From a phage, in the sequence record PZ386958.1: a DNA stretch of 64,000 bases; one strand, given 5' to 3'. Below are positions 3,081 to 60,959 of the stretch, piece by piece. Made by a program: the position numbers and the translations under genes. Position 1 is the first letter of the stretch; each line of letters starts with the position of its first letter. The notes beneath the pieces are model-generated. The model did not search any database. It was given only the letters and a program-made list of their open reading frames with translations, and was not told the DNA's origin.

Positions 3081-4181
3081 TTATTCATAATCTCGTATAA
3101 CTAACCCAACAGGGAACTGTAAAGACCCCTTACGAGTCATCTTCTGGAACTGAACCGTTAAAGGTTTCCCGATAAACTCTTCAGGATGTTCAGCAAGATA
3201 CTGTTTCTTCTCGTGTGTAGTTTTCCATGAAACATCTACAAAGACGTTAGGAAGAGTCTCTACAACGAACTTACCATGACCACGCTTATCAGTCTTTACA
3301 CCAGTCACTTTAAACTCTTCAGTGTGCATCTTCTTGTGTTTAATCAAGAAGTATGAACGGTGACAACACTCATAGAAGGAGTCTTCAGAGATTGAACGGT
3401 ACATTGCACCTTCAAACTGAGCTTCAACCCACTTATCATGGGCTTCATCAAACTCTTCCCAAGAATTTACACGACGAGACTTAACAGGAACAACTTTACA
3501 GCCGTCTCTGAAGTCATTCAATGGTGAAGTCTCAATAATATCTCTACGCTCAGGCCATGTCTTAGTGCTGTCACAGATATCGTACCAGTAGAACTGGAGT
3601 AGATGTCGGTCTGGATTGTCAGCATTCTTAATCATAGACACAATGTCTTCTAAGTCCCAGCCATGAGCATAAATCTCGCCATCAAAGTCTTCAACTTGTG
3701 GATGTAATTTAAGCAACAAAAGCAAATCTGGGATTAGTTCTGCTGGAACGTTGTAAACAGTATTCTCACGAGAATAAGCCGTGAAACTAACTGTATCAGC
3801 ATCTCTTGAAATTCTACAACGGACACCATCAAGTTTTGGTTGAGCATCAGCAGGAAACTTCAGATACTTTGCATGGCTAACCTTTGCAGCATCATGAGCA
3901 AGCTGTACACCTACCTTCTCAGTATTCTGTGCAGACTCTTTTGTGTAAGCATAGCCTTTGCGGTCAATTTGCTTTTTATACTTAGCAGCAACTTCAAAGA
4001 GAGCTTGCTGTTCAGCATTACGCTCATTCTTTTTACCGATGTTTTTAGGTTCTGCTGTGTACTCTTCAAACATCATCTTGCCATTTTCTTTACCGTAGGT
4101 TGTAATAACTTTGTCACCTACAGCAACGCATGACCAGACGTTAAAAGAACCATCTTTATTTTGTTTGTACAGTGTTGTCAT
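3081..4181 (-). CDS. ATP-dependent DNA ligase
   Basis: 366 aa; nucleotidyltransferase motif I KLDGVR (adenylated lysine), motif III FDGEIY, motif IV EGAMYR, motif V LIKHKK. Confidence 0.75.
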   Translation of the reverse strand: MTTLYKQNKDGSFNVWSCVAVGDKVITTYGKENGKMMFEEYTAEPKNIGKKNERNAEQQALFEVAAKYKKQIDRKGYAYTKESAQNTEKVGVQLAHDAAKVSHAKYLKFPADAQPKLDGVRCRISRDADTVSFTAYSRENTVYNVPAELIPDLLLLLKLHPQVEDFDGEIYAHGWDLEDIVSMIKNADNPDRHLLQFYWYDICDSTKTWPERRDIIETSPLNDFRDGCKVVPVKSRRVNSWEEFDEAHDKWVEAQFEGAMYRSISEDSFYECCHRSYFLIKHKKMHTEEFKVTGVKTDKRGHGKFVVETLPNVFVDVSWKTTHEKKQYLAEHPEEFIGKPLTVQFQKMTRKGSLQFPVGLVIRDYE

Positions 4182-4384
4182 TTTCTCTTACCACCAATCT
4201 CTACGTCGATAACTTGAACATCGCCAGCAACATCAAACTTATGAATGATGCTTTCCACAGTGTAAGTACAACCATCAATGCGAACCAACTCACCTTCTCG
4301 TGGGACGATTGGGTTACGTTGAGCTACGGTTGCAGTGGAGTGAATAACATCATAACAGTAGATATAGTTTACTAGGACTTCCAT
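4178..4384 (-). CDS. Hypothetical small protein
   Basis: 68-aa ORF, translationally coupled in operon. Confidence 0.3.
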   Translation of the reverse strand: MEVLVNYIYCYDVIHSTATVAQRNPIVPREGELVRIDGCTYTVESIIHKFDVAGDVQVIDVEIGGKRK

Positions 4385-57109: not shown

Positions 57110-58486
57110 ATGAGCGAATTATTTAAACATGCGCACCTTCATGCAGGTCGAACTGAAAATGGTGCTGTAAACCATACTTCATCAATGTCTGCTCTTGTAG
57201 ACTTTTACAAAGCTGCTGGTTCAAGCCGTAGCAACGTAGAAATCTTACCAGACCTGTTCTACAAAGCTTTGCGTGAGGATGTTGATGTTGCAGTTCGTAT
57301 TTTGCTTCATATGCGAGATGTGCGAGAAGGTATGGGTGAGCGTAAAGCCTTCAGAACTGTTTTGCTTCAAGCAATTGAAGATAAAGTTTTAGAGCCTACA
57401 CAGGTTCTTCGCATTATGGATAAGATTGCAGAACTTGGTCGTTTTGATGACTTCAAAATCTTCGTAGGTACTCGTTTCGAGACGGATGCCTTCAAACATT
57501 TAGAAGCAGCATTACTAGACCCTGCAACAGCAGGTTTGGCAGCTAAGTGGTTACCACGAGTCAAACCACGTCATAAGCAGTTTGTAAAACGTTTCTGCAA
57601 GTTTGCCAACTTGAGTGAGAAAGAGTACCGCACACTGTTATCTGCACTGTCTGATACAGTTGAGCAAAAAATCTCTGCTAATGAGTTTGGTAAGATTGAC
57701 TACAGCAAGATTCCTTCACTTGCTGCTGCACGTTACCAAAAACTGTTTAACCGTAAAGATGGAGAACGCTACAAAGCTTATATTGAGTCTTTATCAAAAG
57801 GTGAGGCTAAGATTAACGCTGGTGCTGTTTACCCATACGATGTGATTAAGTCTATCAAGCATGGTAATGCAGATGTTGCCAATGAGCAGTGGAAAGCACT
57901 ACCAAACTGGATGGCAGAAGGTGAGAACATCTTGTGTATGACTGATGTTTCAAGCTCAATGTCTTGGGTGAATCTTGGCTCAATCACCGCCCTTGATATT
58001 GGTGTATCACTTGCCTTGTATGTAGCAGAACGCAATACAGGCTGCTTTAAGAATGAGTTAATGGTTTACTCAACAAACCCTCACTTCATCGAACTGAGTG
58101 GTGATTTACGAAATCGTCATCGTCAGGTGATGCGACACGTTGAATATGGTTCAACTAACTTACAAGCAGCTTTTGACCGCATTCTTGAGGTAGGTAAGAG
58201 AAACAACTTGACTCAGAAAGATATGCCAAGTAAGCTTATTATCTTCTCTGATATGGAGTTCAATCAGGTTGATGGTGCAAATGGTCGTACAAACTTTGAA
58301 GCAATTCAGAGTAAGTACAAAAAAGCTGGATACGAAATGCCTCAACTGGTATTCTGGTACTTAGCAAACCGTAATGGTACTTGCGAAGTGTCTGTTAAGG
58401 ATAACGGTGTAGCAATGGTATCAGGGTTCTCTCCAGCCACTTTAAAAGCTCTGCTTGGTGGTGAGAAGTTTGACCAATCAGCGTAA
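57110..58486 (+). CDS. von Willebrand factor A (vWA) domain protein with N-terminal helical domain (possible TROVE/Ro60-like or DUF2828-like)
   Basis: 458 aa; MIDAS motif DVSSS in LCMTDVSSSMSW; N-terminal 270 aa helical; directly upstream of tRNA cluster. Confidence 0.45.
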   Translation: MSELFKHAHLHAGRTENGAVNHTSSMSALVDFYKAAGSSRSNVEILPDLFYKALREDVDVAVRILLHMRDVREGMGERKAFRTVLLQAIEDKVLEPTQVLRIMDKIAELGRFDDFKIFVGTRFETDAFKHLEAALLDPATAGLAAKWLPRVKPRHKQFVKRFCKFANLSEKEYRTLLSALSDTVEQKISANEFGKIDYSKIPSLAAARYQKLFNRKDGERYKAYIESLSKGEAKINAGAVYPYDVIKSIKHGNADVANEQWKALPNWMAEGENILCMTDVSSSMSWVNLGSITALDIGVSLALYVAERNTGCFKNELMVYSTNPHFIELSGDLRNRHRQVMRHVEYGSTNLQAAFDRILEVGKRNNLTQKDMPSKLIIFSDMEFNQVDGANGRTNFEAIQSKYKKAGYEMPQLVFWYLANRNGTCEVSVKDNGVAMVSGFSPATLKALLGGEKFDQSA

Positions 58487-58540: not shown

Positions 58541-58575
58541 TATTGACAATGTGTTTAATACCCTTTAATATGTTC
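58541..58575 (+). promoter_or_regulatory. Promoter-like element (gggtattgacaatgtgtttaataccctttaatatg)
   Basis: TTGACA then TAATAT-like box at appropriate spacing upstream of tRNA cluster. Confidence 0.35.
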
Positions 58576-58689
58576 TACATAGAAACGAAATGAGAGCTTT
58601 TCTAAGATACTGAAAAATATTTTAAAAAAGTTCTTGACAACCACTAAAAAATAATGTTAAAGTGGTTACATAGAGTTTGAAAAGTTTAT

Positions 58690-58851: not shown

Positions 58852-58857
58852 GTTTTG

Positions 58858-58931
58858 ACAGAAGACCAATTACAGCAAACTTAATCTTATTCATCTGAAG
58901 GTAAATCGGACAAAGAAGAGATTTGGTCTGG
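58858..58931 (+). ncRNA. Bracket stem-loop element a (ACAGAAGACCaatTACAGCAA ... tTTGGTCTGG)
   Basis: 5' AGACCAA pairs with 3' TTGGTCT; conserved TACAGCAA; one of four copies with compensatory changes. Confidence 0.45.
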
Positions 58932-58942
58932 TCATTAAGAAT

Positions 58943-59019
58943 TGCGGGTATAGAGAAAGGGCGTCTCACATGTCTCATTAGCATGGTATCGGCAGGTTCG
59001 ACTCCTGCACCCGCCTCCA
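58943..59019 (+). tRNA. tRNA with CAT anticodon (Met or Ile-lysidine)
   Basis: Anticodon stem CATGT/GCATG loop CTCATTA; T-arm GCAGG-TTCGACT-CCTGC; 1-72 mismatch; CCA encoded. Confidence 0.5.
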
Positions 59020-59024
59020 AATTT

Positions 59025-59090
59025 ACAGAAGACCGTTTACAGCAATATTTATTAAATTTTTAGCGGAAAAATTGAAAGATACGGTCTGGT
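59025..59090 (+). ncRNA. Bracket stem-loop element b
   Basis: ACAGAAGACCGTTTACAGCAA ... ACGGTCTGG; AGACCGT pairs with ACGGTCT. Confidence 0.45.
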
Positions 59091-59102
59091 AATACTAAAC
59101 AT

Positions 59103-59179
59103 GGTTAGGAAGCACATAAGGTATGTGCGGTCGCCTGTTAAGCGAATGGCACAGGGTTCGAATCCCTGACTAACCGCCA
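59103..59179 (+). tRNA. tRNA-Asn (anticodon GTT)
   Basis: Loop CTGTTAA; T-arm CAGGG-TTCGAAT-CCCTG; acceptor 3' ACTAACC-G-CCA. Confidence 0.55.
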
Positions 59180-59248
59180 AATTTAGGAGAGAAGCGATTG
59201 CTCACCGATTTGTAAGGTGCAAGTCCTTAGCCTGAATAGAAATTAAAT

Positions 59249-59336
59249 GTGTCGTTATCCCGTAGATGGTAGCGGTGGGGACTGTAAATCCCTTGTCATT
59301 GAGACTCGGTAGGTTCTACTCCTACACGGCACACCA
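59249..59336 (+). tRNA. tRNA-Tyr (anticodon GTA), long variable arm
   Basis: 88 nt; anticodon stem GGGGA/TCCCT loop CTGTAAA; acceptor GTGTCGT/ACGGCAC; CCA encoded. Confidence 0.55.
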
Positions 59337-59341
59337 ATAAA

Positions 59342-59419
59342 GGTTATGTAGTTTAATTTGGTTAAAATACTCCCCTGTCACGGGAGATGATGAGGGTTCA
59401 AATCCCTTCGTAACCGCCA
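59342..59419 (+). tRNA. tRNA-Asp (anticodon GTC)
   Basis: Anticodon stem CTCCC/GGGAG loop CTGTCAC; T-arm GAGGG-TTCAAAT-CCCTT; CCA encoded. Confidence 0.6.
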
Positions 59420-59450
59420 ATTTTGAGAGGGCTATTTAGCCCCTCCCTTA

Positions 59451-59478
59451 AATGGTTCTTACGAGTATCCTTTAAAGG
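59451..59478 (+). ncRNA. Conserved small hairpin GGTTCTTACGAG(T/A)(A/G)TCCTT(T)AAA (copy 1)
   Basis: Second copy at 62447-62474. Confidence 0.3.
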
Positions 59479-59480
59479 AG

Positions 59481-59553
59481 CAGAAGACCAAATACAGCAA
59501 GAACGTATGAAATTTCAAGCCAATTTAATTTTGAAAATTTAAACTTGGTCTGG
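59481..59553 (+). ncRNA. Bracket stem-loop element c
   Basis: CAGAAGACCAAATACAGCAA ... CTTGGTCTGG. Confidence 0.45.
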
Positions 59554-59565
59554 CTCAACAAATTT

Positions 59566-59698
59566 ACAGAAGACCGTCTACAGCAAAACTTAAACAATCT
59601 ATTTCTCCGGTAAAGAAAAGGCGAAGGTTCGATTCCTTCACTCGGCAGATGTCGAGTTGGTGTAATGGTAGCACTTAAGATGATAAACAACGGTCTGG
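59566..59698 (+). ncRNA. Bracket element d enclosing a permuted tRNA-like module (T-arm, acceptor-like hairpin, D-arm); candidate Y-RNA-like ncRNA
   Basis: Closing stem AGACCGT(C)/ACGGTCT; inside: GAAGG-TTCGATT-CCTTC, hairpin ACTCGGC-AGAT-GTCGAGT, then TGGTGTAATGGTAGCAC; no anticodon arm. Confidence 0.45.
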
Positions 59699-59701
59699 TA
59701 A

Positions 59702-59841
59702 TTATCTTTGTAGATAAGTTATTAAGCTTACCTGTGAGTATGCGACCACAAAGGGTGAAAGGGTAAATTCTAGATTTAAACCCAAAAAGGCACATCGCTA
59801 CAGACCTTAAGCAAGTCTGGGTAGCTTATCTACAAAGATAA
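59702..59841 (+). ncRNA. Structured element closed by a perfect 17-bp inverted repeat (TTATCTTTGTAGATAAG / CTTATCTACAAAGATAA)
   Basis: Enclosed ~106 nt has internal hairpins (CAGACCTTAAGCAAGTCTG; AGCTTACC...GGTAGCTT); no ORF. Confidence 0.4.
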
Positions 59842-59847
59842 TTTAAT

Positions 59848-60006: not shown

Positions 60007-60081
60007 TGTGGGTTAGCATAAATGGTAATGCAAACGGCTGATAACCGTTAGAAGAGGGTTCGATACCCTCACCTACAACCA
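60007..60081 (+). tRNA. tRNA-Ile (anticodon GAT)
   Basis: Anticodon stem AACGG/CCGTT loop CTGATAA; T-arm GAGGG-TTCGATA-CCCTC; CCA encoded. Confidence 0.6.
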
Positions 60082-60095
60082 ATTTCAATAAAGTT

Positions 60096-60130
60096 GTTGA
60101 CATTAAGATGTGACTACTTTATAGTAACCT
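60096..60130 (+). promoter_or_regulatory. Sigma70-like promoter inside tRNA cluster (gttgacattaagatgtgactactttatagtaacc)
   Basis: TTGACA - 17 nt - TATAGT. Confidence 0.5.
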
Positions 60131-60328
60131 TAGTTTTCGTTGCGTAGCGTCTATTTTGCAAATTTAAAATAAATGCAAACGACAATGTTTTTCTGGCAGT
60201 AGCTTGATAGGCTAAACACCAGTGAGGTCTTCCAATCCCTCATCAAAGAATTTGGCGTACTCGCCCACGGTATGATTAATAAGGTGGGCATCTTTAAGGG
60301 CTTTCTAAGAGAGTCTTTAAAGATTAAT

Positions 60329-60403: not shown

Positions 60404-60519
60404 TATTTAGAGTGTCTCCAAATGGAGGTGGTCTGTATCTCATGTTTTCCAGAACATGTAAATAATCTGAGAAGGGGCTTTACAGTGTTGAGATAATACG
60501 GTAAGCTTCGAATTATAAT

Positions 60520-60602
60520 ATGGGACGATGTTAAGACTCTAAGGCATGAGCAACGGCTTCCAACACCGTTTCAAAGGGGTTCAACTCCTCCGTCCCATGC
60601 CA
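60520..60602 (+). tRNA. Atypical 83-nt tRNA (possible anticodon CCA, Trp) or tRNA-like gene
   Basis: Acceptor ATGGGAC/GTCCCAT and T-arm AGGGG-TTCAACT-CCTCC clear, CCA encoded; D/anticodon region too long and folds ambiguously. Confidence 0.35.
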
Positions 60603-60615
60603 AAGTCTTATTAGG

Positions 60616-60703: not shown

Positions 60704-60859
60704 CCTAATAAGATTTTAAAGCCAAGCTTCATTCGGATGTTGCTTTGGCATCCCTCGTGTTGTCGTACACACTAATAAAGCACCTAGTAGGTGTCATGGA
60801 GAAGAGATAATATCAAGCTCTCCAAAGGTTCTAGTCACCGGATTAAACAAGACTATGCA

Positions 60860-60880
60860 AAGACCAATTTAGGTCTTTTT
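60860..60880 (+). terminator. Hairpin plus T-run (aagaccaatttaggtcttttt)
   Basis: Stem AGACC/GGTCT followed by TTTTT within tRNA cluster. Confidence 0.45.
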
Positions 60881-60959
60881 AGAGGGCTTCTAAGGTTATT
60901 ACAGCTTGTTGTGGAACCTTGTTGCTTAGGTTCTTAGAAGTTCTCTAAAAAGATTTAAT

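What the first reader, a model, noticed from the sequence alone, without database searches (positions are those of the whole stretch)
58858..59698. Four bracket stem-loop elements with compensatory base changes inside the tRNA cluster
Four elements share a 5' motif ACAGAAGACC-NNN-TACAGCAA and a 3' motif NNN-GGTCTGG separated by 30-110 nt. The variable trinucleotides co-vary to keep pairing: AGACCAA/TTGGTCT, AGACCGT/ACGGTCT, AGACCAAA/CTTGGTCT, AGACCGTC/ACGGTCT. Compensatory change across copies is the signature of a selected stem, so these are structured RNA or DNA elements, not random spacers. Possible roles are processing signals, small RNAs or protein-binding sites between tRNAs.
Basis: seen in the sequence. 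Interest (0 to 1): 0.6.

Follow-up and report, generated by a model that had tools for sequence, protein, structure and literature searches.

The report
Y-like RNAs beside phage Ro gene
The four repeats are small structured RNAs, one of them a tRNA mimic. They belong to a widespread RNA family I could not find described, which sits next to a phage gene for a Ro60-like RNA-binding protein, so they are most likely that protein's "Y RNA" partners.

Summary
Four co-oriented elements lie in the tRNA cluster of a Felixounavirus: E1 58856-58934, E2 59023-59092, E3 59478-59556 and E4 59564-59701.

Each has the same closing structure:
- a 3-4 bp lower stem;
- an AGA/G internal loop;
- a 7 bp upper stem;
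- a single-stranded UACAGCAA, followed by a variable interior.

Pairing is kept by compensatory and G·U changes across Ounavirinae and a Yersinia phage: 98% of cells are paired and 8 of 11 pairs change on both sides. This points to an RNA made from the + strand.

E4's interior is a tRNA-like module with V, T, capped-acceptor and D arms in the order seen in Salmonella YrlA.

A covariance model built only from close relatives finds the same motif next to DUF2828 genes in distant phages, including Listeria, Staphylococcus, Bacillus, Enterococcus and Mycobacterium phages. All 78 hits are on the gene's strand, and most lie within 300 nt of the gene.

Rfam has no such family, and the canonical Ro-binding CGAA motif is replaced by CNGCAA.

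Verdict: a new variant of the Ro60/Y-RNA system. Binding and expression are untested.

The parts
57110..58486 (+). Gene for a Ro60-like protein (DUF2828 N-terminal helical domain plus C-terminal vWA domain), the proposed protein partner. It reads 458 aa here but 471 aa in relatives, because a 1-nt deletion in a C-run near 58473 shifts the frame.
58543..58663 (+). Two sigma-70-like promoter matches (58543-58571 and 58634-58663) ahead of tRNA-Pro. They are the likely start of the polycistronic tRNA/Y-like RNA transcript.
   Evidence: Consensus scan: 10 of 12 matches each, and no + strand terminator-like site before the next promoter-like site at 60097. These are consensus matches only.
58856..58934 (+). 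E1, short form. Lower stem 58856-58859/58931-58934, loop AGA 58860-58862, upper stem 58863-58869/58923-58929, unpaired G 58930, conserved UUACAGCAA 58870-58878. It fills the spacer between tRNA-Glu and tRNA-Met.
   Evidence: Model R1 64 bits, E 1.4e-10. Covariation.
59023..59092 (+). E2, short form. Lower stem 59023-59026/59089-59092, loop AGA 59027-59029, upper stem 59030-59036/59081-59087, unpaired G 59088, CAGCAA 59040-59045. It fills the spacer between tRNA-Met and tRNA-Asn.
   Evidence: R1 83 bits. In phage Mushroom the 3' strand reads GUGGUCU, which gives two G·U wobbles.
59478..59556 (+). E3, short form. Lower stem 59478-59481/59553-59556, loop AGA 59482-59484, upper stem 59485-59491/59545-59551, unpaired G 59552, CAGCAA 59495-59500.
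   Evidence: R1 68 bits.
59564..59701 (+). E4, long form. Lower stem 59564-59567/59698-59701, loop AGA 59568-59570, upper stem 59571-59577/59690-59696, unpaired G 59697, CAGCAA 59581-59586. The interior is a tRNA-like module.
   Evidence: R1 48 bits, E 4e-7. Seven-helix structure 95.3% paired across 7 distinct orthologues.
59589..59679 (+). tRNA-like module of E4:
- connecting helix 59589-59592/59676-59679;
- V hairpin 59602-59618;
- T arm 59623-59639, with loop UUCGAUU;
- acceptor-like hairpin closed by the loop AGAU, 59640-59657;
- D arm 59660-59674, with loop AAUGGUA.
   Evidence: RNAfold MFE and centroid. Partial Rfam tRNA alignment, 23 bits, covering the V, T and 3' acceptor parts. The acceptor-like stem covaries: ACUCGGC/GUCGAGU here, ACACGUU/GGCGUGU in SUSP2 and Sf13, ACCCUUC/GAAGGGU in Moogle. 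The order V-T-AS-D is that described for YrlA (PMC4201824).
59700..59843 (+). An adjacent fifth structured RNA candidate with a 22-24 bp closing stem. It holds the hairpin CAGAC-CUUAAGCAA-GUCUG, which resembles the E motif. Its relation to E1-E4 is not established.
   Evidence: Inverted repeat I1. MFE -47.9 kcal/mol, z -6.4, 0 of 200 shuffles fold as well. Conserved with compensatory changes in SUSP2, Moogle and Sf13. Not hit by models R1 or R2.

Best explanation
E1-E4 are small non-coding RNAs of the Y-RNA kind, the dedicated RNA partners of the Ro60-like ring protein encoded just upstream.

Shown:
- They form a conserved closing helix: lower stem, AGA/G internal loop and a 7-bp upper stem. 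The base of the upper stem is a near-invariant A-U, G-C followed by a 3' G, and the helix is topped by a conserved single-stranded UWCNGCAA.
- The interior is free to vary.
- One copy (E4) carries a tRNA-shaped module whose acceptor stem is capped.
- The motif travels with the DUF2828/vWA gene, always on the same strand, across very distant phages.
- The protein is predicted to have the Ro60 fold.

Inferred:
- The RNAs are transcribed with the tRNAs from the promoters at about 58543 and 58634.
- They are cut out by the tRNA-processing enzymes. RNase P acting at the next tRNA's 5' end, together with 3' trimming of the previous tRNA, would leave them with 3-10 nt tails.
- The protein recognises the helix base plus the CNGCAA strand, as Ro60 recognises the GGUCCGA/GNCGAA strand of Y RNAs.
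- The variable module (hairpins in E1-E3, the tRNA mimic in E4) gates the ring or tethers it to other enzymes, such as an exonuclease like PNPase, or tRNA-binding or repair enzymes.
- The resulting particle acts on damaged or structured RNA during infection. This is one way to account for the Ppl counter-defence phenotype of the 98%-identical Bas63 gp130.
For: Structure:
- Sequence-based alignment A2: 98.1% of cells paired, 8 of 11 pairs with double changes, slid controls 21-42%.
- G·U variants in Mushroom and Moogle.
- All four copies give the same MFE architecture.

Family and linkage:
- Model R1, built only from Ounavirinae and Yersinia copies, gives 50 of 51 hits (E<=5) on the gene's strand in 76 distant DUF2828 loci, four of them at E<0.01. 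It finds only E1-E4 in the 64-kb window.
- Model R2 gives 78 of 78 hits on the + strand. 45 of 76 loci are hit, and 49 of 74 hits lie within 300 nt of the gene.
- In alignment A5 the upper helix is 96.6% paired and all 7 pairs covary.
- The core CNGCAA occurs at 5.3 per kb in the first 150 nt after the stop codon, against about 1 per kb elsewhere.
- The same tandem elements occur in Listeria, Staphylococcus, Bacillus, Enterococcus and Cronobacter phages and in mycobacteriophage LeBron.
- The T5 tRNA cluster, which lies in a stretch with no DUF2828 gene, has no hit among its tRNAs.

tRNA mimicry:
- E4 has V-T-AS-D arms, with covariation in the acceptor-like stem.
- A T-loop-like motif occurs in 7 of 22 long hits against 1 of 56 short hits.
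- Rfam YrlA hits the LeBron long form at 39.8 bits.

Protein:
- Ro60 fold.
- 98% identical to Bas63 gp130, and Bas63 carries the four elements unannotated.
- gp130 counters Ppl, and the authors only guessed that some of the tRNA genes are Y RNAs (preprint 10.1101/2024.10.10.617714).

Precedent:
- Y RNAs next to Ro genes in bacteria and phages (PMC4201824).
- phiLo Ro60 binds Yrl1 and Yrl2 (PMC12135203).
Against: - There are no expression or binding data for these RNAs in any Felixounavirus.
- The canonical Ro-binding motif (GNCGAAN0-1G / CGAA) is absent. Its one occurrence in E4, GGCGAAG, lies inside the T stem and is not kept in the Yersinia copy.
- Rfam YrlA and Y_RNA models do not match E1-E4 even at E<=10.
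- The protein has no sequence-level TROVE match. A profile search against PDB sequences gives Ro60 only at E 0.7-1.1.
- Folding energies of the four elements are not exceptional (z -0.7 to -1.8), so the case rests on covariation and linkage.
- 31 of 76 distant loci gave no R2 hit at E<=1. Many of these show variant cores by eye.
- Alignments A3 and A5 are fitted to the model, which inflates their pairing counts.
- In this window the partner gene carries a C-terminal frameshift.
Confidence: 0.75

Rival explanations
1. The elements are cis-acting processing or stability elements of the polycistronic tRNA precursor, for example RNase III, E or P guide hairpins. They would separate tRNAs and have no function of their own.
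For: They fill inter-tRNA spacers almost exactly, with 3-10 nt linkers. No + strand terminator-like site was found within the unit. Their folding energies are modest.
Against: The same motif directly follows or precedes the DUF2828 gene where no tRNA flanks it. In the L013-L032 group it starts 10-20 nt after the stop codon. In Listeria phage there are three tandem copies behind a TTGACA promoter-like hexamer. In LeBron there are three copies ending in a terminator-like hairpin. The T5 tRNA cluster lacks the motif, and most tRNA spacers in this window lack it. A processing hairpin would not need a conserved single-stranded CNGCAA or a tRNA-shaped module.
Confidence: 0.08
2. The elements are cis-regulatory sites on the Ro-like gene's own transcript. 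The protein would bind its own UTR for autoregulation, or the elements would act as an attenuator, rather than as trans-acting RNAs.
For: In many distant loci the first copy starts within 40 nt of the stop codon or lies within 300 nt upstream of the start codon. That is compatible with location in a UTR.
Against: In this window the copies lie 370-1200 nt downstream, beyond two promoter-like sites and interleaved with six tRNAs. There are up to four copies with different interiors, one of them a tRNA mimic. Copies occur up to several kb from the gene. Co-transcription with the Ro gene is also the rule for genuine Y RNAs, as reported for the Salmonella rsr-yrlBA-rtcBA operon (PMC7790460; I saw only the abstract).
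Confidence: 0.07
3. E4 is a circularly permuted or degenerate tRNA gene, and E1-E3 are its decayed copies. On this view they are remnants of tRNA-cluster rearrangement.
For: E4 contains a T arm, a D arm and a 7-bp acceptor-like helix whose halves are in permuted order. Rfam tRNA gives a partial match of 23 bits. Another tRNA remnant lies at 59216-59246.
Against: The acceptor-like helix is capped by a 4-nt loop and has no free CCA end. ARAGORN calls no tRNA there, and the Rfam score is below the gathering threshold of 29. The outer bracket and the acceptor-like stem are maintained by compensatory changes across genera, which decay would not do. Capped-acceptor tRNA-like modules recur inside the same bracket in unrelated phages.
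Confidence: 0.03
4. The elements are a small self-cleaving ribozyme or another catalytic RNA that processes the tRNA transcript.
For: They have a compact conserved core, with invariant purines in an internal loop plus a conserved single strand. They are repeated between tRNAs in a phage, a setting where ribozymes are known from the literature (my own knowledge; I did not check this here).
Against: No Rfam ribozyme family matches at E<=10. The interior is freely variable in length and sequence. Strict linkage to a Ro-fold RNA-binding protein is better explained by a ribonucleoprotein.
Confidence: 0.03
5. The elements act at the DNA level, as inverted-repeat sites for a recombinase or homing endonuclease, or as MITE-like repeats.
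For: The closing stems are terminal inverted repeats. HNH endonuclease genes are inserted in this region in some relatives.
Against: Several variants pair only as G·U on the + strand, which would be A·C mismatches on the other strand or in a DNA cruciform. Orientation relative to the gene is fixed in 78 of 78 hits. Copies differ by compensatory substitutions rather than by the uniform ends expected of mobile repeats.
Confidence: 0.02

Closest known systems
Salmonella YrlA and YrlB with Rsr (bacterial Y RNAs; Rfam RF02553)
   Same: - Encoded beside the Ro-type gene on the same strand, in several copies.
- The 5' and 3' ends pair into a stem.
- A short conserved purine-rich motif sits on the 5' strand just above that stem.
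- One long form has a tRNA-like domain in the order V, T, capped acceptor-like stem, D (E4). Short forms lack it (E1-E3, like YrlB).
   Different: - The conserved strand is UWCNGCAA, not GNCGAAN0-1G.
- The helix base A-G...C-U-G and the AGA/G loop are specific to this family.
- The Rfam model does not detect E1-E4. A LeBron relative reaches only 39.8 bits against a gathering score of 69.
- The partner protein is DUF2828, not TROVE, at the sequence level.
- The RNAs are embedded in a tRNA operon.
Thermus phage phiLo Ro60 with Yrl1 and Yrl2 (PMC12135203)
   Same: A phage-encoded Ro-fold ring protein with two or more small stem-bulge-stem RNAs next to its gene. Binding and a PNPase complex have been shown experimentally there, which sets the precedent for the mechanism proposed here.
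Metazoan Y RNAs with Ro60
   Same: Terminal helix with an asymmetric interruption (a 1-nt and a 3-nt bulge) and conserved bases that the ring protein reads. A variable loop region serves other partners.
   Different: Here the 3-nt side of the interruption is on the 5' strand and the 1-nt side on the 3' strand, which I recall (not checked here) is the reverse of Y RNAs. The sequence differs (GGUCCGA/UUGACC in Y RNAs). Those are eukaryotic Pol III transcripts.
Deinococcus radiodurans Yrn1
   Same: A Ro partner with tRNA-like features. Yrn1's T and D arms are oriented the other way round relative to the RNA ends than in YrlA. At least one distant member of the present family (L059 3726-3840) also has D, anticodon-like and T arms in normal tRNA order inside the bracket.
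   Different: No sequence or model match. Yrn1 tethers Rsr to PNPase, which is untested here.

Membership tests
Bacterial/phage Y RNA of the YrlA type | Encoded within a few kb of the Ro-type gene, on the same strand | tested here: met
   E1 starts 370 nt after the ORF's stop codon and E4 ends about 1.2 kb after it, all on the + strand. Across distant loci, 78 of 78 model hits are co-oriented with the gene and 49 of 74 lie within 300 nt of it.
Bacterial/phage Y RNA of the YrlA type | 5' and 3' ends pair into a stem that carries the protein-binding site | tested here: met
   A two-part closing helix is supported by covariation (98.1% paired, 8 of 11 pairs with double changes). That it is the binding site is inferred.
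Bacterial/phage Y RNA of the YrlA type | Conserved Ro-binding motif GNCGAAN0-1G (CGAA) near the 5' end | tested here: not met
   The corresponding position holds UWCNGCAA in all copies and relatives. The only GGCGAAG, in E4, lies inside the T stem and is absent from the Yersinia orthologue.
Bacterial/phage Y RNA of the YrlA type | tRNA-like domain with V, T, acceptor-like (AS) and D stem-loops | tested here: met
   Met for E4 only. E1-E3 have a simple hairpin interior, as described for YrlB.
Bacterial/phage Y RNA of the YrlA type | Reaches the Rfam RF02553 gathering score | tested here: not met
   No RF02553 or RF00019 hit on E1-E4 at E<=10, and none in 7 distant loci. The LeBron long form scores 39.8 bits against the threshold of 69.
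Bacterial/phage Y RNA of the YrlA type | Physically bound by the Ro-type protein; carries tRNA-type modifications or is an RNase P substrate | not testable with these tools
   Needs RIP/CLIP, EMSA and modification mapping.
Ro60 (TROVE + vWA) protein family, for the partner ORF | Helical-repeat ring followed by a vWA domain (fold) | tested here: met
Ro60 (TROVE + vWA) protein family, for the partner ORF | Sequence match to the Pfam TROVE domain or to Ro60 sequences | tested here: not met
   Pfam gives only DUF2828 and DUF7788. phmmer against the PDB finds nothing. A profile search gives Ro60 at E 0.67-1.1.
tRNA gene (including permuted tRNA) | Cloverleaf with free acceptor ends, detected by tRNA finders | tested here: not met
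   ARAGORN finds no tRNA in 59420-59847. Rfam tRNA scores 23 bits against 29 and matches only part of the model. The acceptor-like helix is closed by the loop AGAU.
Intrinsic terminator | G+C-rich hairpin followed by a U run | tested here: not met
   There is no + strand terminator-like site between 58600 and 60400. The stems are followed by GGU(A/C), not by U runs.
Known ribozyme or other curated RNA family (Rfam 15) | Covariance-model match | tested here: not met
   Only chance-level hits, namely Dictyostelium Class I RNA at 20 bits with E 4-5.
DNA-level inverted-repeat element | Strand-symmetric complementarity and no dependence on transcript orientation | tested here: not met
   G·U-only pairs occur in Mushroom E2 and in Moogle E1 and E4. 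Orientation relative to the gene is fixed.

The most novel reading that the evidence does not exclude
These RNAs and the DUF2828 ring protein form a phage-specific counter-defence particle. The tRNA-shaped member (E4) and its hairpin-bearing siblings would act as decoys or adaptors. They would either steer a host nuclease or repair enzyme, or sequester the effector of a defence system such as Ppl or a tRNA-targeting nuclease. This would make them an RNA-based anti-defence module shared by phages of Gram-negative and Gram-positive hosts and mycobacteria. It would use a protein-RNA recognition code (helix base A-G/C-U-G plus CNGCAA) distinct from that of classical Ro60 and Y RNA.
Probability: 0.3. 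Interest if true: 0.85.

Novelty: new variant of a known kind. Interest (0 to 1): 0.72.

Why it matters
Ro60/Y-RNA particles are known from animals, some bacteria and a few phages. The large DUF2828 branch of Ro-like proteins had no identified RNA partner. This branch is found in 710 of about 50,700 phage records, including relatives of Felix O1, P100/A511 and Twort.

Two recent papers could only guess. One suggested that 'some tRNA genes' of Bas63 are Y RNAs. The other suggested that abundant unannotated transcripts of a P100-like phage might be.

The four elements give that guess concrete sequences, a consensus structure and a working covariance model. This has several consequences:
- The open question becomes directly testable by RIP, EMSA, and deletion of E1-E4 in Bas63 on a Ppl host.
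- Spurious small ORF calls on the opposite strand can be corrected, for example bas63_0137 and bas63_0138.
- A second, independent RNA recognition motif for the Ro fold is suggested.

Tried and rejected
- A generic 'best stem near a CNGCAA core' statistic did not separate real sites from shuffled sequence. 56% of sites near the gene reached a score of 7 or more, against 38% of shuffles. In AT-rich DNA a 6-7 bp stem within 200 nt is common, so I dropped this test in favour of covariance models and sequence-based alignments.
- A loose hand-written descriptor gave only about 3-fold enrichment near the gene.
- Folding energy alone is uninformative for E1-E4 (z -0.7 to -1.8 on either strand).
- Rfam searches of the window region, of E4 alone and of seven distant loci found no known family on the motif. 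The weak Dictyostelium Class I hits are chance matches to a stem plus a conserved strand.
- My first idea was that E4 is a permuted tRNA gene. I set it aside once the capped acceptor stem and the YrlA-like arm order were clear.
- I tried to map the most highly transcribed non-coding region of Listeria phage CKA15 onto the Y-like cluster. It maps instead to a ROOL RNA about 0.7-1.2 kb upstream. That paper therefore gives no direct expression evidence for the Y-like RNAs. Coordinates for its two other unannotated hot regions were not in the passages I read.
- The supplementary tables of Chen et al. 2014 were not available. I therefore could not check whether any DUF2828 phage was in their list.
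- Literature searches for DUF2828 and for phage Y RNAs found no description of this motif. The library holds open-access papers only.
Full report
**What the window is.** The region is about 99% identical to Felixounavirus genomes (Felix O1-like myophages). 341 phage records match it, and 238 of them cover 80% or more of the query. ARAGORN finds 25 tRNA genes on the + strand between 58690 and 63556. The finding lies in the first part of this cluster.

**Checking the observation.** AGAAGACC-NNN-TACAGCAA occurs exactly four times, all on the + strand, at 58860, 59027, 59482 and 59568. 0 of 100 shuffles reach the observed count. The complete bracket has an expectation of 0.00, and each copy is followed by GGTCTGG.

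All four copies give the same architecture:
- a lower stem of 3-4 bp that differs between copies (UGAC/GUCA, UUAC/GUAA, GAGC/GCUC, UUAC/GUAA);
- an asymmetric internal loop, 5' AGA against 3' G;
- a 7-bp upper stem, AGACC+AA or AGACC+GU;
- a single-stranded (U)UACAGCAA;
- a variable interior.

The third 'variable' base does not pair, so the 8-bp stems claimed for E3 and E4 are wrong. Folding energies are unremarkable (z -0.7 to -1.8). The minus strand folds about as well. Thermodynamics therefore proves nothing here.

**Is the pairing selected, and on which strand?** The four elements are present at the same places in Suspvirus, Mooglevirus and other Felixounavirus genomes. Informative variants:
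- Mushroom E2 has GU in place of AC on the 3' strand, giving two G·U wobbles.
- Moogle E1 has AGGCC, giving a G·U pair.
- Moogle E4 has AGACU, giving a U·G pair.

All of these pair only as RNA from the + strand.

Yersinia phage P778, whose Ro-like protein is only 53% identical, has copies with different stems in the same frame: GGACUGU/ACAGUCC, GGAUUC/GAAUCC and GGACUC/GAGUCC.

A MAFFT alignment of 14 short copies, made from sequence alone, keeps both ends in register. On it, 98.1% of cells pair, 8 of 11 pairs change on both sides, and 0 of 500 shuffles reach the covariation score. Sliding the partner by 1-3 columns drops pairing to 21-42%.

**The fourth copy is a tRNA mimic.** Inside E4 the MFE and centroid structures contain, in this order:
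- a 4-bp connecting helix;
- a 5-bp hairpin with a 7-nt loop (V);
- a T arm, GAAGG-UUCGAUU-CCUUC;
- a 7-bp acceptor-like helix closed by the loop AGAU;
- a D arm, GUGU-AAUGGUA-GCAC.

Rfam's tRNA model aligns the V, T and 3'-acceptor part at 23 bits, below threshold. ARAGORN calls nothing there.

Across seven distinct orthologues the seven-helix structure is 95.3% paired. The acceptor-like stem is rebuilt with different sequences in SUSP2/Sf13 and in Moogle.

The order V-T-AS-D inside a helix formed by the RNA's ends is how Chen et al. (2014) describe YrlA, the tRNA-like Y RNA of Salmonella. Their YrlB is a shorter RNA that shares only the protein-binding end (PMC4201824). E4 therefore looks like a YrlA, and E1-E3 look like YrlB.

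**The neighbouring gene.** The ORF 57110-58486 ends 370 nt before E1.
- Pfam sees only DUF2828 and DUF7788, a vWA domain.
- PHROGs calls it an 'RNA-binding protein'.
- Mycobacteriophage homologues are annotated 'Ro-like RNA binding protein'.
- No sequence search links it significantly to Ro60.
- An AlphaFold2 model built from 45 homologues is confident, with pLDDT 88.4 and pTM 0.87.
- The eight best Foldseek hits in the PDB are all Ro60 or TROVE-domain entries (E 8e-9 to 2e-6, TM about 0.6).

The protein is 98% identical to Bas63 gp130. Bas63 carries the four elements at the same positions, unannotated, and two of them are overlapped by small minus-strand ORF calls.

A preprint reports that deleting g130 cripples Bas63 on hosts carrying the Ppl defence system, and that gp130 resembles Ro60. 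[quoted passage not shown]

**Does the RNA travel with the gene?** I fetched 75 distant loci (39-48% protein identity) from viral contigs, each oriented with the gene on the + strand. With the Yersinia locus they make the 76 distant loci used below.
- By eye, most have a stem-forming segment plus UWCNGCAA starting within about 100 nt of the stop codon.
- The core CNGCAA occurs at 5.3 per kb in the first 150 nt after the stop, against about 1 per kb elsewhere and 0.8 per kb on the other strand. 46 of 76 loci have it there.
- Model R1, built only from the 14 close copies, gave 51 hits at E<=5 when run on the window plus the distant loci, both strands. 50 were on the gene's strand and four distant hits had E<0.01. 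The window had only E1-E4.
- Model R2, rebuilt from the 28 best hits, gave 78 hits at E<=1, all on the + strand. They fell in 45 of 76 distant loci, and 49 of 74 lay within 300 nt of the gene, 31 just downstream and 18 just upstream.

The aligned hits show the consensus (A)A-A-G-R-NNNN, 1-3 nt, UWCAGCAA ... NNNN-Y-C-U-G. The inner base pairs use all four Watson-Crick types. The upper helix is 96.6% paired and all seven pairs covary, against 30-48% in slid controls. These alignments are fitted to the model, so the counts lean towards it. The strand and position biases do not depend on that fitting.

The family also appears next to the DUF2828 gene in named phages:
- three tandem copies behind a TTGACA promoter-like hexamer in Listeria phage LMTA-57;
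- copies in Staphylococcus, Bacillus, Enterococcus and Cronobacter phages;
- a short/long/short trio ending in a terminator-like hairpin after gp53 of mycobacteriophage LeBron, where the long copy again has T, capped-acceptor and D arms.

Long hits carry a T-loop-like motif in 7 of 22 cases, against 1 of 56 short ones.

As a negative control I searched an 18-kb stretch of phage T5 that holds its tRNA cluster and no DUF2828 gene. It gave one weak hit inside a coding sequence and none among the tRNAs.

**Comparison with what is known.** Phage Ro60 proteins with adjacent Y-like RNAs are established, in mycobacteriophages (Chen 2014) and in Thermus phage phiLo, where binding and a PNPase complex were shown (PMC12135203). 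The present RNAs work like those in every feature that could be tested. They fail two membership criteria:
- The conserved strand is CNGCAA, not GNCGAA/CGAA.
- Rfam's YrlA and Y_RNA models do not find E1-E4, nor the motif in distant loci. Only the LeBron long form reaches 39.8 bits against a gathering score of 69, mainly through its tRNA-like part.

The partner is Ro-like by fold only. I therefore file this as a new variant of the Ro60/Y-RNA system and not as members of the YrlA family. I found no description of the motif in the searchable literature, which holds open-access papers only.

**Mechanism, and what is shown versus inferred.**
- Shown: the structure, its selection at the RNA level, the tRNA mimicry of E4, the linkage to the gene, and the predicted fold of the protein.
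- Inferred from the promoter scan and the layout: the RNAs are made as part of the tRNA precursor and released by tRNA-end processing.
- Inferred by analogy with Ro60 and Y RNA: the ring protein binds the conserved helix base and the CNGCAA strand, and the variable module gates or tethers the protein.
- Inferred from one published phenotype of the protein alone: the particle serves counter-defence or RNA repair. Supporting context is that an RtcB-type ligase gene lies 1.3 kb from the gene in Listeria phages, and that LeBron also encodes a predicted RNA ligase and a polynucleotide kinase.

**Rivals.** I considered five alternatives: a pure processing signal, a cis-regulatory UTR element, a permuted or decayed tRNA, a ribozyme, and a DNA-level repeat. 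The evidence against each is given in the rival explanations. Together I give them about 0.25.

Noticed in passing
window 58470-58486: The Ro-like ORF has a 1-nt deletion in a C-run: GACCAATC here, GACCCAATC or GACCCTATC in all 10 relatives checked. It therefore ends after 458 aa instead of 471 aa and loses the conserved C-terminal PISVMLKAVMIDRYIW. This could be a homopolymer sequencing error or a real truncation.
   Followed up: yes
window 59700-59843: A fifth strongly structured element lies directly after E4 and before tRNA-Lys. It has a 22-24 bp closing stem, MFE -47.9 kcal/mol and z -6.4, and is conserved with compensatory changes in SUSP2, Moogle and Sf13. It contains the hairpin CAGAC-CUUAAGCAA-GUCUG, which resembles the E motif, but the covariance models do not hit it.
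   Followed up: partly
window 59472-59795 (- strand ORF); L099 10749-11023: A 107-aa minus-strand ORF overlaps E3, E4 and the fifth element. In Bas63 the same stretch is annotated as two small minus-strand 'hypothetical proteins' (bas63_0137 and bas63_0138). These are probably spurious calls over non-coding RNA genes.
   Followed up: partly
window 59185-59248: The spacer between tRNA-Asn and tRNA-Tyr holds a degenerate T-arm-like segment (GGTGCAAGTCC at 59216-59226, in repeat family D1). It looks like a tRNA remnant.
   Followed up: no
window 60024-60328, 60404-60615, 60706-60959: Other long unannotated spacers lie in the tRNA cluster. Rfam gives sub-threshold permuted-tmRNA (33 bits) and tmRNA (16 bits) hits at 60024-60328. 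A strong promoter-like site (11 of 12 matches) sits at 60097-60125.
   Followed up: no
L087 428-979 (Listeria phage LMTA-57): A ROOL RNA (RF03087, 88.5 bits, E 6e-18, just under the gathering score) lies about 1 kb upstream of the DUF2828 gene. By coordinate mapping it is the region that the CKA15 transcriptome paper reports as the most highly transcribed and tentatively called possible Y RNAs or sRNAs.
   Followed up: partly
L087 4808-5407; L089 (LeBron): RNA-repair genes accompany the Ro-like gene. An RtcB-type 'tRNA-splicing ligase' lies 1.3 kb downstream in Listeria phages. LeBron encodes a predicted RNA ligase (gp85) and a polynucleotide kinase (gp74), and both are toxic on overexpression together with gp53. 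This echoes the Salmonella rsr-yrlBA-rtcBA operon.
   Followed up: no
L092 3896-4138 (Cronobacter phage S13): Two annotated 'tRNAs' of 121 and 113 nt carry inserts of about 45 nt in the anticodon region that contain UAUUCAGCA. They are followed at 4147-4295 by a long tRNA-like member of the family.
   Followed up: no
PMC12282133 (CKA15_055): The DUF2828 protein of the P100-like Listeria phage was detected in purified virions by mass spectrometry (57% sequence coverage). This raises the possibility that the Ro-like protein is packaged and injected.
   Followed up: no
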